From the NCBI RefSeq assembly GCF_009914755.1, contig NC_060927.1: a stretch of DNA of 64,000 nucleotides. One strand, 5' to 3'. Shown piece by piece: positions 26,688-38,107 of the stretch; position 1 is the stretch's first letter; every line of letters begins with the position of its first letter. Under the pieces are notes generated by a model. That model saw nothing but the letters and a program-made list of their open reading frames with translations. It did not search any database and was not told where the DNA came from. Both the position numbers and the translations under genes were made by a program. Origin of the DNA: the human T2T-CHM13v2.0 reference genome, Homo sapiens.

Positions 26688-26810
26688 TTAACAAGTGCCA
26701 ATACAGTCTCTGATGATTCCGATGGTGATGGCGCCATAACCACAAGGGGCTCCCCCAACAGCACCAGCTCCCAGAGCATCTGACTATGAAGGAAAACTGG
26801 GCAGAAACAC
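26688..26810 (-). CDS. DENND6A: DENND6A exon 10 (123 nt, [41 protein letters not shown]; core DENN)
   Basis: tttcag / gtgagt, phase 2/2; visible in ORF 26684..27010. Confidence 0.97.
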
Positions 26811-28129
26811 CTGAAAGGTGATGCACAGTAGAAATACTTTTTAATGTAGCCAATCCTGTTTTTAAAATTCCTACATAATCTTTCTAAAAACTCCACATTG
26901 ATATAAATTCTTCCTGCTATTTGTATCCTGATCTGATACACAAATTCATTTAGAATATGGTGATGTATAGAGACATAAGTCCCTTTTATCCACATAAAAA
27001 TATCTATCAATTTGACTCATCCTAATTTTTACAAAATTAAATGTAATATATTGACACACAGAATAACTGACAATAAAAGCATATAATTCTCAAATTGTTG
27101 TACCATATGATCGATCTATTTTATCAATATTGCTTTGATACTTTGAATTTCAATCCTAAATATTTTTAAGGAAATAAGAAAAATTAATTTTCCAAGGGCA
27201 CTTATTGGATATACTTAACTTAAAACCCAATACTTCTGACATTAAAGAATGATGACAAATCACAAGGGGGAGTGCTAATGCTGAACAAGAGCGAAACTCC
27301 TGGGCAGATACTCCCTCTACAGAAGTGCTGAGTATTTTTACAGCAGCCCTGGAATTGGGTGGAGGCCTGTTGGGACACAACTCTGCTAGTATGTTACCAG
27401 GCCTAAGACACTTGGTAACTTTCACTTATTTAGGAATTTCCTCCTGGCTTGGTAAAAAATTTTCCTAGTAGATTAGGGGGGAAAATCTTATCTATTTATG
27501 AAAATCACAACCAATCCACTCAGTTGAAAAGACACACATGCAAATAAAAAAGAAAAGAAAAATCAAACAACAATTAAGTGCAAAAATATGCAACAAATTA
27601 TGAGATGGAAATTAGGGGAGTTAATTTTAACTATTCAAAAACAAGATAAGTGCCACAAAAGAAACAAACAACAACAAAAAAACAGCTCATGGGTAAGGCA
27701 AAGGAGCTCTTCCTCTTCCCTTCCTAAACAACTCAGTCCTAAAGCAGAACATGGTAGGTATCTCTGCCATGAGGGAAAGAGAGCCGTATTGACCAGGGAG
27801 GCGTGTCAGAGCTTATGTAAGGTAAGGTGGACATCTACATGCAGATAGTGGCCTACTGTGGAACTGCTGGAGCCCAAATGTGGTGAGCAATGTATACATG
27901 TGTGGGGATTATTTGGTTTCAGTTCACAGAGCCCAGGAAGCACAGACAGGTAGCCTGATGAGTAGCATCAAAGACAGAATGAGTTGAGGAGGTTGTCACA
28001 ATGTGGGACCACCTGGCATAAGGTGTCAGAGCAGAGAAATGAGGGTATCTCCATGGAGAAGTACCCTGGAGTAGGGTAAGCACACAAGCAGGGTAAGGAG
28101 AGCACTCATGTGAGGCTTGACCTGGTGTT

Positions 28130-30283
28130 GAGAGTCAGAGCCCAAAAAGGGGAAGATGGCACCCACCTGGAGATGTGGTCTAGTGGGACAGAGTAACCTG
28201 AATGAGACAGGAGGGTATCCATGGGGGTGGGGGTGGGGGGTCAATCCAACAAGAAGAATCAGAGAGTGAGCAGGGTAAGGAGGGTATCCATGCAGAAGGG
28301 AAGCCAGGTGTAGAATGTCAGGGCCCAGTGGGGATGAGAAAACTATTAGCTTGGGGGACAAAGTTGCAGCAGAGTCCTAGCCAGAGCAATCAGAGAAGAG
28401 AAAGAAATAAAGAGCATGCAAATTGGTAATGAGGAATTTAAACTGTCACTGTTTGCTGATGACATCATATACCTAGAAAACCTTAAAAACTCATCCAAAA
28501 ACCTCCTAGAACTGGTAAATGAATTCAGCAAAGTTTCCGAATACAAAATTAATGTACACAAATCAGTAGCTCTCCTATACACCAACAGCAACCAAGCTGA
28601 GAATCAAATCAACCCCTTTTACAATAGCTGCAATACATAAAATACTAAGGAATATACTTACTCAAGGAGGTGAAAGACCTCTACAGGGAAAATGACAAAA
28701 CACTGCTGAAAAAAATCACAGACGACACAAACAAATGGAAACACATCCTATGCTCATGGATGGGTAGAGTCAATATTGTAAAAATGACCATACTGCCAAA
28801 AGCAATCTACAAATTCAACGCAATTCCCATCAATGCCCTCCTTACACTGCTTGTTCCCATCATTCGTCACAGAACTAGAAAAAACAATCCTAAAATTCAT
28901 ATGGAACCAAAAAAGAGCCTGCATAGCTAAAGTAAGACTAAGCAAAAAGAACAAATCTGGAAGCAATACATTATCTGCCTTCAAACTACACTGTAAAGCC
29001 ATAGTCATCAAAACAGCATGGTACTGGTATAAAAATAGGCATATAGACCAATGGAACAGAACAGAGAACCCAGAGATAAAGCCAAATGCTTACAGTCAAC
29101 TGATCTTCAACAAAGCAAACAAAAACATAAAGTGGGGAAAAGACACCCTATTTAACAAATGGTGCTGAGATAATTGGCAAGCCACATGTAGAAGAATGAA
29201 ACTGGATCCTCATCTCTCATCCTTTACAAAAACAAACTCAAGATTAATCAAAAACTTAAATCTAAGACCTGAAATCATAAAATTTCTAGAAGATAACATT
29301 GGAAAAAACCCATCCAGGCATAAACCTAGGCAAAGACTTCATGACCAAGAACCCAAAAGCAAATGCAACAAAACAAAGATAAATAGATGGGACTTATTTT
29401 GCTTCTGTACAGCAAAAGAAATAATCAGCAGAGTAAACAGACAACTCACAGAATAGGAGAAAATCTTCACAATCTATACATCCAAACAAAGGACAAATAT
29501 CCAGAATCTATAAGGAACTTAAATCAGCAAGAACAAAATAAACAATCCCATCAAAAAGTGGGCTAAGGACATGAATAGACAATTCTCAAAAGAAGATATA
29601 CAAATTGCCAACAAACATTAAAAAATGCTTAACATCACTAATTATCAGGGAAATGCAAATCAAACCCACAATGCACTAGTACCTCACTCCTGCAAGAATA
29701 GCCATAATCAAAAAATCAAAAAATAATAAATGTTGGTGTGGATGTGGTGAAAAGGGAATACTTTTACACTGTTGGTAGAAATGTAAACTAGTACAACCAC
29801 TATGGAAAACCGTACAGAGATTCCTTAAAGAACTAAAAGTAGATCTACCATTTGATCCAGCAATCCCACTACTGGGTATCTACCCAGAGGAAAGGAAGTC
29901 ATAAAAAAAAAAAAAAGATTCTTGCACATGCATGTTTATAGCAGCACAATGCACAATTGCAAAAATATGGAACAAGCCCAAATGCCCATCAATCAATGAG
30001 TGAAAAAAAAAAAATATATATATATATAGTTGTATGTGTGTATATATATATTTGTCCCCCATGCTAATACTTTTCTCATCTCCCCTGGGCCCTGACATTC
30101 TACACCTGGCTTCCCTTCTGCATGGATACCCTCCTTACCCTGCTCACTCTCTGATTCTCCTTGTTGGATTGACCCCCCACCCCCACCCCCATGGATACCC
30201 TCCTGTCTCATTCAGGTTACTCTATCCCACTAGACCACGTCTCCAAGTGGGTGCCATCTTCCCCTTTTTGGGCTCTGACTCTC
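28130..30283. repeat. 233-bp inverted repeat (arms 28130-28362 and 30051-30283)
   Basis: Manual alignment: 8 mismatches, no indels. Also seen as near-identical ORFs on opposite strands (28202+/29993- and 28026-/30034+). Confidence 0.97.
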
Positions 30284-30686
30284 TGTATATATATACACAC
30301 ACACACACACACACCGTGGAATACTACTCAGCCATAAAAAGGAATGAAATAAAGGCATTCAGAGCGCCCTAGATGGAATTGGAGACCATTATTCTAAAGT
30401 AACTTAGGAATGGAAAACCAAACATCATATGTTCTCACTCATAAGTGGGAGCTAAGCTATGAGGATGCAAAGACATAAGAATGATACTATGAACTTTGGG
30501 AACTCAGTGGGGAAAGGGAGGGAGGGGGTGAGGGATAAAAAGACTACATATTGGGTACAGTGTACATTCCTCGTGTGATGGGTATATCAAAATCTCAGAA
30601 ATCATCACTAAAGAACTTATTCATGCAACCAAACACCACCTATTCCCCAAAAACCTTTTGAAATAAACAAAAAACCTAAAAAAAAA
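28375..30686 (+). mobile_element. 5'-truncated L1PB-like LINE-1 (ORF2 3' part, 3' UTR, A tail) with a 15-bp TSD
   Basis: ORF2 peptides ([54 protein letters not shown]); L1PB-type 3' UTR; TSD aaagttgcagcagag at 28360-28374 and 30687-30701. Confidence 0.92.
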
Positions 30687-31175
30687 AAAGTTGCAGCAGA
30701 GATGCAGCATTGATTACTAACAGAGGTATTGATTAAATCAGTTAATAAAAAATAATTTAATATATGAGTGTGTATATATACATGCATTTACATACACACA
30801 CACACACACACACACACATACATACACACACACACATCCTAGCTTTGTCCACTTGAGAGGGTCTAAAAGCAATGATATCTCAATATCAATAAGCACACCA
30901 AGTGCCCAGATCTTGTCTTCTAAATCTTATTCTCTGCTAAAAAGAACAAAGGCTTTTTAGAGAAATGGCTGGTTCTAGGGCTTGGGAAGAGAAAATACAA
31001 GATGATCTGGAACCCAAGAGAATGGAAAACATGTCCACACAAAGACGTATACACAAATGTGGACAGTAGCATTATTCATAATAACCAAAAGTGTAAACCA
31101 TCCAAACCTGCATCAAAAGGTGAATGGATAGACAAAATGTAGTATATCCACATGGAATTTTTTTTTTTTTTTTGA

Positions 31176-38051: not shown

Positions 38052-38107
38052 CTGAAAATATCCACCTCATGAACAGTAGGTAAAATAACAGATATATTTG
38101 TGTCCAC
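38052..38107 (-). CDS. DENND6A: DENND6A exon 9 (56 nt, VDTNISVILPTVHEVDIF-R)
   Basis: tctcag / gtaaag, phase 0/2. Confidence 0.95.

What the first reader, a model, noticed from the sequence alone, without database searches (positions are those of the whole stretch)
28833..28856. Second, short inverted copy of the same 5' flank inside L1 ORF2
Seen: where L1 ORF2 should read ..IPIKIPPSFFTELEK.. (recalled consensus cccatcaaaataccaccatcattc), this copy has an extra block, tgccctccttacactgcttgttc, that shifts the frame. ORF 28670 runs [11 protein letters not shown], and ORF 28833 resumes at PSFVTELEK. The reverse complement acaagcagtgtaaggagggca matches 28084-28104 (acaagcagggtaaggagagca) at 19/21, about 25 bp upstream of where the 233-bp copy starts. 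Inference: a second excursion to the same flank strand in the same orientation. Two captures in one element favour repeated template jumping during a single insertion event.
Basis: partly seen in the sequence, partly recalled or inferred. Interest (0 to 1): 0.7.

Follow-up and report, generated by a model that had tools for sequence, protein, structure and literature searches.

The report
Flank-derived filler inside an old L1
An old, dead L1 retrotransposon in a human intron carries a private 23-base patch that looks copied, in reverse, from DNA just upstream of the element; it probably records a polymerase briefly switching templates and has no expected function.

Summary
At 28834-28856, 23 nt replace 7 nt of L1 ORF2 (net +16, a frameshift). 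All 7 aligned relatives lack the block. No other place in the 3.1-Gb genome matches it within 2 mismatches, so it is not L1 consensus.

Its reverse complement matches 28084-28104 at 19/21. This exceeds chance: 2 of 20,000 dinucleotide shuffles and 3 of 5,000 at 19/23 or better.

The source is not unique. The flank repeats the motif, and 28264-28287 and its inverted copy 30126-30149 match about as well (18/23).

Timing is open:
- For capture at L1 integration: a 233-bp inverted copy of the same flank and strand lies in the same element. Its inner end (28362) abuts the target-site duplication, where the endonuclease nick lay.
- Against: the two 233-bp arms differ by only 3.4%, where about 13-15% is expected from the L1's own divergence. 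That needs gene conversion or a later event. The copy also sits in a fragile palindromic (TA)n site.
- Primate orthologues, the decisive test, were not available.

My weights are: template switching at integration 0.45, later templated repair 0.35, host RNA as template 0.10, chance 0.08. It is a modest curiosity of a known kind.

The parts
28834..28856 (+). Private 23-nt non-L1 block that replaces 7 nt of L1 ORF2 (net +16, frameshift)
   Evidence: Unique in the genome at 2 mismatches or fewer.
28084..28104 (-). Candidate template a. Its reverse complement matches the block at 19/21. The similarity extends to 25/30 over 28084-28113 against 28825-28854.
   Evidence: (pair I2).
28264..28287 (-). 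Candidate template b, a paralogous motif unit inside the 233-bp arm: 19/24 overall, with a 15/16 core.
   Evidence: pair I4.
30126..30149 (+). Candidate template c, the copy of unit b inside the inverted 233-bp insert. It lies in direct orientation to the block (19/24).
28375..30689 (+). 5'-truncated L1 (ORF2 remnant plus 3' UTR) with a poly(A) tail at 30678-30689.
   Evidence: Relatives are 81-88% identical.
28363..28374 (+). 5' target-site duplication GTTGCAGCAGAG (up to 15 bp if the preceding AAA is counted)
30690..30701 (+). 3' target-site duplication GTTGCAGCAGAG
28130..28362 (+). Flank arm, the source of the 233-bp inverted copy. It ends at the base before the TSD.
   Evidence: pair I1.
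30051..30283 (-). 233-bp inverted copy of the flank inside the L1: 225/233 identical, no gaps. It is absent from 8 distinct L1 relatives.
30039..30050 (+). TGTATATATATA, left copy of a perfect 12-nt direct repeat that abuts the 233-bp insert
30284..30295 (+). TGTATATATATA, right copy of the 12-nt direct repeat that abuts the 233-bp insert
28825..28832 (+). TCCCATCA, left copy of an 8-nt direct repeat around the block (right copy at 28855-28862). Six of the 8 nt (CCATCA) are already repeated in L1 itself.

Best explanation
The block is filler DNA copied from the repeated motif in the element's own upstream flank. It was made when the polymerase building the L1 minus strand during target-primed reverse transcription left the L1 RNA, copied about 21 nt of the nicked (bottom) target strand, and returned to the RNA.

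The same integration had already made a longer excursion of 233 nt. That excursion ran to the 5' end of the nicked strand, at the endonuclease nick, before synthesis resumed on L1 12 nt behind where it had left.

Shown here:
- The block is private, is not L1, and resembles the flank beyond chance.
- Both inserts have the same strand sense and lie inside one TSD pair.
- The 233-bp copy ends at the edge of the TSD.

Inferred:
- The polymerase was ORF2p and the time was integration.
- The two 233-bp arms were later kept alike by gene conversion.

No function is expected: this is a dead, frameshifted L1 in an intron.
For: 1. The block is absent from 7/7 aligned relatives and from the rest of the genome at 2 mismatches or fewer.
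2. The inverted match to the flank is significant: 2/20,000 shuffles, 3/5,000 shuffles, and 1 complex hit among 59,956 real 23-mers. After the 233-bp pair it is the best inverted pair in 27300-30750 (I2).
3. The 233-bp inverted copy ends at 28362, and the TSD core starts at 28363. A strand copied from the bottom strand towards the nick would run off exactly there.
4. The two inserts come from the same roughly 280-bp flank, have the same sense and lie 1.2 kb apart within one element. One pass of one polymerase along the L1 explains both.
5. The block's divergence from template a (2/21 to 4/23) fits the roughly 15% expected for a copy as old as the L1. It fits 3.4% less well: P = 0.16 and 0.007.
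6. Both inserts are abutted by short direct repeats of L1 sequence, 12 nt and 8 nt, as if synthesis resumed a few bases behind the point of departure.
7. Print: purified ORF2p copies DNA and RNA templates about equally well, adds untemplated bases and jumps between templates (PMC10830420, passages read). [quoted passage not shown]
Against: 1. The 233-bp arms differ at 8/233 sites (3.4%). The L1's terminal branch is 0.064-0.10 substitutions per site, which predicts 24-34 differences: P(8 or fewer) = 9e-5 to 3e-8. So gene conversion must be assumed. Support for it is weak: 7 of the 8 differences lie in the outer 94 bp, permutation P = 0.055.
2. The 233-bp insert sits in L1's own near-palindromic TGG(TA)5CCA site, which is flanked here by (TG)n and (CA)n (I5). 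Another L1 copy also grew a microsatellite at that site (L004). This is a plausible DNA-level fragile site.
3. There is no microhomology behind the junctions in the direction of cDNA synthesis. The 6/9 similarity between L1 TCCCATCAA and flank TCACATGAG lies ahead of the return jump, not behind it.
4. The template is ambiguous among three places.
5. The block's template ends are not endonuclease-like sites.
6. No orthologue data were available.
Confidence: 0.45

Rival explanations
1. The change arose later, at the DNA level, long after integration. A break or stalled fork was repaired with short templated synthesis from the nearby flank, by microhomology-mediated break-induced replication or polymerase-theta-type end joining. 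This could be one break-induced replication run that started at the (TA)n palindrome and switched templates twice, or two separate events.
For: - The low divergence of the 233-bp arms (3.4%) is what a younger event predicts, against 13-15% expected at L1 age.
- The 233-bp insert lies in a palindromic AT-rich, microsatellite-prone site.
- The block has the classic form of a deletion plus filler insertion (7 nt out, 23 nt in).
- Imperfect homology (6/9) lies behind the entry junction if the plus strand was the nascent strand.
- Germline inverted templated insertions, some drawn from several templates, are documented in humans (PMC8421209, passages read). So are short template switches (PMC5453318, passages read).
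Against: - Nothing at a later time marks 28362/28363, so the end of the 233-bp copy at the TSD edge would be a coincidence. I estimate its probability at roughly 1% (inference, not computed).
- The template lies 711-750 nt from the block. The published searches looked within 100 bp (PMC8421209) or within a few tens of bp (PMC5453318). Those are limits of the searches, not proven limits of the process.
- Two separate later events drawing on the same flank in the same orientation would be unlikely.
- The block's 4/23 mismatches sit poorly with 3.4% if both inserts arose in one young event (Fisher P = 0.015, but 0.20 for 2/21).
Confidence: 0.35
2. The event happened at integration, but the template was RNA rather than DNA. 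DENND6A is transcribed from the minus strand, so its intronic pre-mRNA has the bottom-strand sequence. ORF2p could have switched from L1 RNA to this local host transcript.
For: - Per the supplied gene table, the L1 lies antisense in a DENND6A intron (between exons 26688-26810 and 38052-38107). An RNA of the required sense therefore exists wherever the gene is expressed.
- The strand sense of both inserts fits.
- L1 chimeras formed by switching to other RNAs are well documented (10.1101/2025.02.02.635956, passages read).
Against: - An intact pre-mRNA continues across 28362/28363, so the stop of the 233-nt copy at the nick is unexplained.
- Nothing shows DENND6A was expressed in the germline at the time.
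- For the 23-nt block alone, sequence cannot tell this apart from the DNA-template version.
Confidence: 0.1
3. The resemblance is chance. The block is an ordinary untemplated or otherwise-sourced filler insertion that happens to resemble a purine-rich flank motif.
For: - Over the full 23 nt the flank match has 4 mismatches, whereas 10 unrelated genome places have only 3.
- The flank is compositionally similar to the block, which raises the shuffle P to 6e-4.
Against: - 2/20,000 and 3/5,000 shuffles reach the observed match.
- There is no hit of 17/23 or better in 83 kb of other DNA.
- Only 1 complex 23-mer of 59,956 does as well against this flank.
- The three best hits in the 64-kb window all lie in the flank motif or its copy.
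Confidence: 0.08

Closest known systems
[quoted passage not shown]
   Same: Non-L1 genomic sequence from next to the integration site is enclosed within a poly(A)/TSD-bounded insertion. The authors attribute it to ORF2p DNA-templated synthesis or to processing of the ends.
   Different: From the passages I read, those cases involve processing of the reciprocal DNA end before it is joined. Here both inserts lie inside the L1 body with collinear L1 on both sides. There are two of them, and this is an old fixed germline copy. I did not see that paper's supplementary figures S9 and S10, which may show closer parallels.
ORF2p and non-LTR reverse transcriptase template jumping, and L1 chimeras with U6 or other RNAs
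   Same: One cDNA strand is continued on a second template. Untemplated bases may occur at the junctions (2 unexplained nt, TC, at the block's 3' edge).
   Different: Known chimeras switch once, at the end of the L1 template, to another RNA. They lie 5' of the L1 in the same orientation. Here the excursions are internal, return to L1, and copy target-site sequence of the opposite sense.
Twin priming (L1 5' inversion)
   Same: An aberrant integration product within one TSD pair, with small duplications at internal junctions.
   Different: No L1 segment is inverted here. The inverted material is flank DNA.
Short template-switch mutations and MMBIR templated insertions (PMC5453318, PMC8421209)
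   Same: A short inverted copy of nearby sequence replaces a few bases and creates a complex indel.
   Different: The template is 711-750 nt away rather than within about 100 bp. A second, much longer capture from the same flank lies 1.2 kb away.

Membership tests
L1 insertion made by target-primed reverse transcription | Homology to L1 ORF2 and 3' UTR, collinear with other copies | tested here: met
   Relatives are 81-88% identical over 28376-30010 and 30315-30677.
L1 insertion made by target-primed reverse transcription | 3' poly(A) tail and flanking target-site duplication | tested here: met
   A12 at 30678-30689. GTTGCAGCAGAG at 28363-28374 and 30690-30701, 12/12 identical.
L1 insertion made by target-primed reverse transcription | Endonuclease-type target on the nicked strand (TTTT/AA; the motif is recalled and also quoted in 10.1101/2025.02.02.635956) | tested here: inconclusive
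   The bottom strand reads CAACTTT/GTCC at the inferred nick, which is a degenerate match.
Insert made during the L1's own integration (template switch) | Insert enclosed by the same TSD pair as the L1 | tested here: met
   The block (28834-28856) and the 233-bp copy (30051-30283) both lie between 28374 and 30690.
Insert made during the L1's own integration (template switch) | A breakpoint that coincides with an integration intermediate (the nick) | tested here: inconclusive
   Met for the 233-bp copy: its end at 28362 lies 0-3 nt from the nick. Not met for the block, whose template ends at 28084 and 28104 mark nothing.
Insert made during the L1's own integration (template switch) | Copy-to-source divergence equal to twice the L1's divergence since insertion | tested here: inconclusive
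   Block: 2/21 to 4/23, compatible. 233-bp copy: 8/233 against 24-34 expected, so not met unless gene conversion is assumed.
Insert made during the L1's own integration (template switch) | Same phylogenetic distribution as the L1 | not testable with these tools
   Only the human assembly is held.
Replicative short template switch or MMBIR templated insertion | Inverted copy of a nearby template that replaces the local bases | tested here: met
Replicative short template switch or MMBIR templated insertion | Template very close by (within 100 bp in the MMBSearch definition, PMC8421209) | tested here: not met
   711 nt lie between the arms for template a and 535 nt for template b.
Replicative short template switch or MMBIR templated insertion | Microhomology at the switch junctions | tested here: inconclusive
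   Imperfect 6/9 similarity adjoins one junction; there is none at the other.
Twin priming | 5' part of the L1 inverted relative to the 3' part | tested here: not met
   Both L1 parts are collinear on the plus strand.
Part of an L1 subfamily consensus | Block present in many L1 copies | tested here: not met
   0 of 7 aligned relatives carry it. There is 1 genome place at 2 mismatches or fewer. 9 of 9 fetched 3-mismatch places lack L1 context.

The most novel reading that the evidence does not exclude
This element is a fossil of a single aberrant integration. ORF2p twice abandoned the L1 RNA in mid-element to copy the nicked target strand itself. The first time it copied 233 nt, running off at the 5' end left by its own endonuclease. 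The second time it copied about 21 nt. Each time it hopped back and resumed on L1 a few bases behind where it left (12 nt and 8 nt). That would be germline, in vivo evidence for serial DNA-templated excursions by ORF2p inside an L1 body, followed by long-term gene conversion between two 233-bp inverted arms 1.7 kb apart.
Probability: 0.4. Interest if true: 0.55.

Novelty: new member of a known kind. Interest (0 to 1): 0.35.

Why it matters
The patch has no expected biological function. It lies in a dead, frameshifted L1 in an intron of DENND6A.

Its value is as a record of mechanism. If both flank-derived inserts date from the integration, they show what the L1 enzyme can do in the germline:
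- use the nicked target DNA as a template;
- run off at its own nick;
- jump back into the RNA, more than once per event.

These behaviours are so far seen mainly with purified enzyme and in cells that over-express L1.

If the inserts are later, the locus is an example of templated repair around a palindromic (TA)n site inside L1. It is also a caution that L1-internal 'captures' can arise after insertion. Either way, a primate alignment settles it cheaply.

Tried and rejected
- **Whole-window positional null**. 6.7% of all 23-mers have an inverted match of 19/23 or better within 1 kb. I rejected this as a null because it is driven by interspersed repeats and A/T runs. I replaced it with block shuffles and with real 23-mers against the non-L1 flank.
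- **Reversed-pattern control** (2 hits against 10). I judge it too low, because the reversed pattern contains two CpGs (inference).
- **Flank as a repeat family.** Rejected: 27880-28362 matches only itself and its inverted copy in the genome at that search's sensitivity.
- **Block derived from a high-copy repeat or another part of L1.** Rejected: only 11 genome places match at 3 mismatches or fewer.
- **Further flank-derived pieces in the L1.** None found. There is no other private insertion of 4 nt or more in 28376-30010. The 3' part has near-equal lengths in 39 relatives. No further L1/flank inverted pairs stand above the low-complexity ones.
- **Private insertions in 6 relatives as a small control**. 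There are only 3 of 8 nt or more: two are simple repeats and one is a 15-mer without a local match. That is too few to give a rate.
- **An independent later retroposition of a flank transcript into the (TA)n site.** I considered this because of the 12-nt flanking repeat and the terminal AAA. I set it aside because the nick site (TATA/CA) is poor, there is no poly(A), and it does not explain the end at 28362.
- **Dating by a full-length L1 consensus.** Not done. I used consensus-free three-point branch lengths and a FastTree tree instead.

Full report
**What is there**

The window holds a 5'-truncated L1 on the plus strand, from about 28375 to 30689. It ends in A12 (30678-30689) and is bracketed by a perfect 12-bp target-site duplication (TSD), GTTGCAGCAGAG, at 28363-28374 and 30690-30701. 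The TSD is up to 15 bp if the preceding AAA is counted.

The sequence around the finding reads ...AATTCCCATCAA|TGCCCTCCTTACACTGCTTGTTC|CCATCATTC.... I searched the window's own genome, which is held as G000 (3.1 Gb). A search with 28700-29000 scored 40 of 3634 candidate L1 copies.
- The 26 other places that span the whole 301-nt query are 285-291 bases long.
- Seven relatives aligned base by base all read CATCAA + AATACCA (or CpG-decay variants such as AATACTG) + CCATCA.

ORF 28649-28930 ends in ...[11 protein letters not shown]..., and ORF 28788-29168 carries ...PSFVTELEK.... In a 7-sequence alignment of 28376-30010 this is the only window-private insertion of 4 nt or more.

**Is it L1 consensus or from elsewhere?**

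It is neither.
- Genome-wide the 23-mer has no other place within 2 mismatches and 10 places at exactly 3 mismatches.
- The 9 of those 10 that were fetched have no L1 context.
- A block belonging to any L1 subfamily or other high-copy repeat would give hundreds of hits.

**Is the flank match real?**

The reverse complement of the block matches 28084-28104 at 19/21, and 25 nt separate that stretch from the 233-bp arm. The null tests were as follows.
- Dinucleotide shuffles of the block against the real +-1 kb reach 19/21 in 2 of 20,000 and 19/23 in 3 of 5,000.
- 83,037 bases of other human DNA, both strands, give no hit of 17/23 or better.
- Of 59,956 real 23-mers from elsewhere in the window, 111 reach 19/23 against the 1-kb non-L1 flank. 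Of their 113 matched places, 112 fall in the target bins at 27525 and 27650, where every listed query is an A/T-rich run. One, at 27418, is complex sequence.
- A naive positional null over the whole window is useless: 6.7% of positions reach the mark, driven by repeats.
- An independent repeat finder ranks this pair (30 nt, 25/30, 28084-28113 against 28825-28854) second only to the 233-bp pair in 27300-30750.

I conclude with about 90% confidence that the block shares origin with the flank motif.

**The template is not unique**

The flank is single-copy in the genome apart from its inverted copy. Internally, however, it is a degenerate array that repeats a motif like AGCAGGGTAAGGAGGGTATCCATG at about 27806, 28029, 28087, 28209 (partial) and 28269.

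Over the 24-mer 28833-28856, three places tie at 5 mismatches:
- 28082-28105 (inverted);
- 28264-28287 (inverted, inside the 233-bp arm);
- 30126-30149 (direct, inside the inverted copy).

Template a gives the longest clean run (19/21). Templates b and c give a 15/16 core and match the outermost bases.

**The companion 233-bp copy**

Flank 28130-28362 recurs inverted at 30051-30283, 225/233 identical with no gaps. Eight distinct L1 relatives lack it. Four features bear on its timing.

1. Its inner end, 28362, is the base before the TSD core. In target-primed reverse transcription the bottom strand is nicked at the left edge of the TSD. A minus-strand cDNA that copied the bottom strand from 28130 towards the nick would run off its 5' end exactly there. 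The orientation of the insert is the one this predicts (reasoned). Nothing marks this position once integration is over.

2. The arms are too alike.
   - Consensus-free three-point estimates put the window L1's terminal branch at 0.081 substitutions per site (minimum 0.071). Without CpG columns it is 0.075 (range 0.064-0.102). FastTree gives 0.095.
   - Two copies made at integration should then differ at about 24-34 of 233 sites.
   - Only 8 differ: P(8 or fewer) = 9e-5 to 3e-8.
   - Seven of the 8 differences lie in the outer 94 bp, and the central 139 bp has one. This is a weak hint of gene conversion (permutation P = 0.055).

3. The insert sits in L1's own near-palindromic site. Relatives read ...AAAATGTGG-TATATATATA-CCATGG....
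   - In the window the insert is flanked by (TG)n(TA)n on the left and (TA)n(CA)n on the right, which are 19/20 complementary to each other (I5, 44).
   - Another L1 copy (L004) grew a microsatellite at the same position.
   - This is a plausible site of DNA-level fragility.

4. A perfect 12-nt direct repeat, TGTATATATATA, abuts the insert on both sides (30039-50 and 30284-95). Synthesis therefore resumed on L1 12 nt behind where it left, or the insert entered a 12-nt staggered break.

**A parallel at the block**

TCCCATCA occurs at 28825-32 and 28855-62, directly around a 22-nt core. L1 itself already repeats CCATCA here, so only 2 extra bases support a duplication. I record it as an observation only.

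In the direction of cDNA synthesis there is no microhomology behind either junction. The 6/9 similarity between L1 TCCCATCAA and flank TCACATGAG would help only a nascent plus strand.

**Weighing the readings**

- the nick coincidence of the 233-bp copy;
- two captures from one roughly 280-bp flank, of the same sense, 1.2 kb apart inside one TSD pair, which one pass of one polymerase explains;
- block divergence of 2/21 to 4/23, which fits about 15% better than 3.4% (P = 0.16 and 0.007 under 3.4%; Fisher against the arms 0.20 and 0.015);
- known enzymology: ORF2p uses DNA and RNA templates about equally, adds untemplated bases and jumps templates (PMC10830420, passages);

For a later origin:
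- the 3.4% arm divergence;
- the palindromic (TA)n location;
- the 'deletion plus filler' form of the block;
- documented germline templated insertions, some with several templates (PMC8421209, passages);
- short template switches (PMC5453318, passages).

One break-induced replication run that started at the broken palindrome and moved leftwards could in principle make both inserts, with the same topology as the cDNA model. It would leave the stop at 28362 to chance, which I estimate at about 1% (inference).

A variant of the integration model uses DENND6A pre-mRNA as template. The gene is on the minus strand according to the supplied table, so its transcript has the bottom-strand sequence. 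This fits the strand sense but not the stop at the nick.

My weights are:
- template switching at integration onto target DNA: 0.45;
- the same with host RNA as template: 0.10;
- later DNA-level templated repair: 0.35;
- chance: 0.08.

**Comparison with what is known**

This works like ORF2p template jumping and like the 'templated genomic insertions' seen at experimental L1 insertions. It differs in that the inserts are internal to the L1 body, return to L1, number two, and copy the opposite sense of the target.
- It is not twin priming: no L1 segment is inverted.
- It fails the proximity criterion used for MMBIR templated insertions: 535-711 nt against 100 bp or less (PMC8421209).

My four paper searches turned up no description of an L1-internal inverted flank copy that ends at the nick. 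These were keyword searches of an open-access library, and I did not see the supplementary figures of PMC11702581, so I make no claim that it is unpublished.

**Verdict**

The block is a real, private, flank-like filler in a dead L1. Whether it dates from the integration cannot be decided from the human sequence alone. A primate alignment of this locus would decide it. No function is expected. Interest is modest.

Noticed in passing
window 28130-28362 and 30051-30283: The 233-bp inverted flank copy is only 3.4% diverged from its source (8/233), where about 10-15% is expected from the L1's own branch length. Seven of the 8 differences lie in the outer 94 bp. Either gene conversion acted between short inverted arms 1.7 kb apart, or the event is much younger than the L1.
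   Followed up: partly
window 30039-30050 and 30284-30295: A perfect 12-nt direct repeat, TGTATATATATA, abuts the 233-bp insert on both sides, like a target-site duplication. The wider flanks, (TG)n(TA)n and (TA)n(CA)n, are 19/20 complementary to each other.
   Followed up: partly
window about 30000-30050 and 30284-30316; locus L004 about 2830-2885: L1 relatives carry a small near-palindrome, TGG(TA)5CCA, at this position. It has grown into microsatellites both in this copy and independently in another genome copy (L004), which suggests a recurrently unstable site in this L1 family.
   Followed up: no
window 27740-28362: The unique-sequence flank is itself a degenerate array that repeats a roughly 24-nt motif (AGCAGGGTAAGGAGGGTATCCATG-like) at irregular spacings of 69-287 nt. 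It also holds a (TGGGGG)3 run at 28222-28239. The genome search found no relatives elsewhere.
   Followed up: partly
window 28129/28130: The outer end of the 233-bp source lies at bottom-strand CTCTC/AACACC, a weak endonuclease-like site (pyrimidine run followed by AA). If a second nick occurred there, the 233 nt would be a strand segment bounded by two nicks and copied end to end. This is speculative.
   Followed up: no
window after 28612 and after 29399: There are two private L1 deletions (8 nt and 9 nt) relative to 6 relatives, and an A-run expansion at 29903-29905. These are ordinary decay.
   Followed up: no
window 30790-30836: An (AC)23 microsatellite lies about 90 bp downstream of the 3' TSD.
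   Followed up: no
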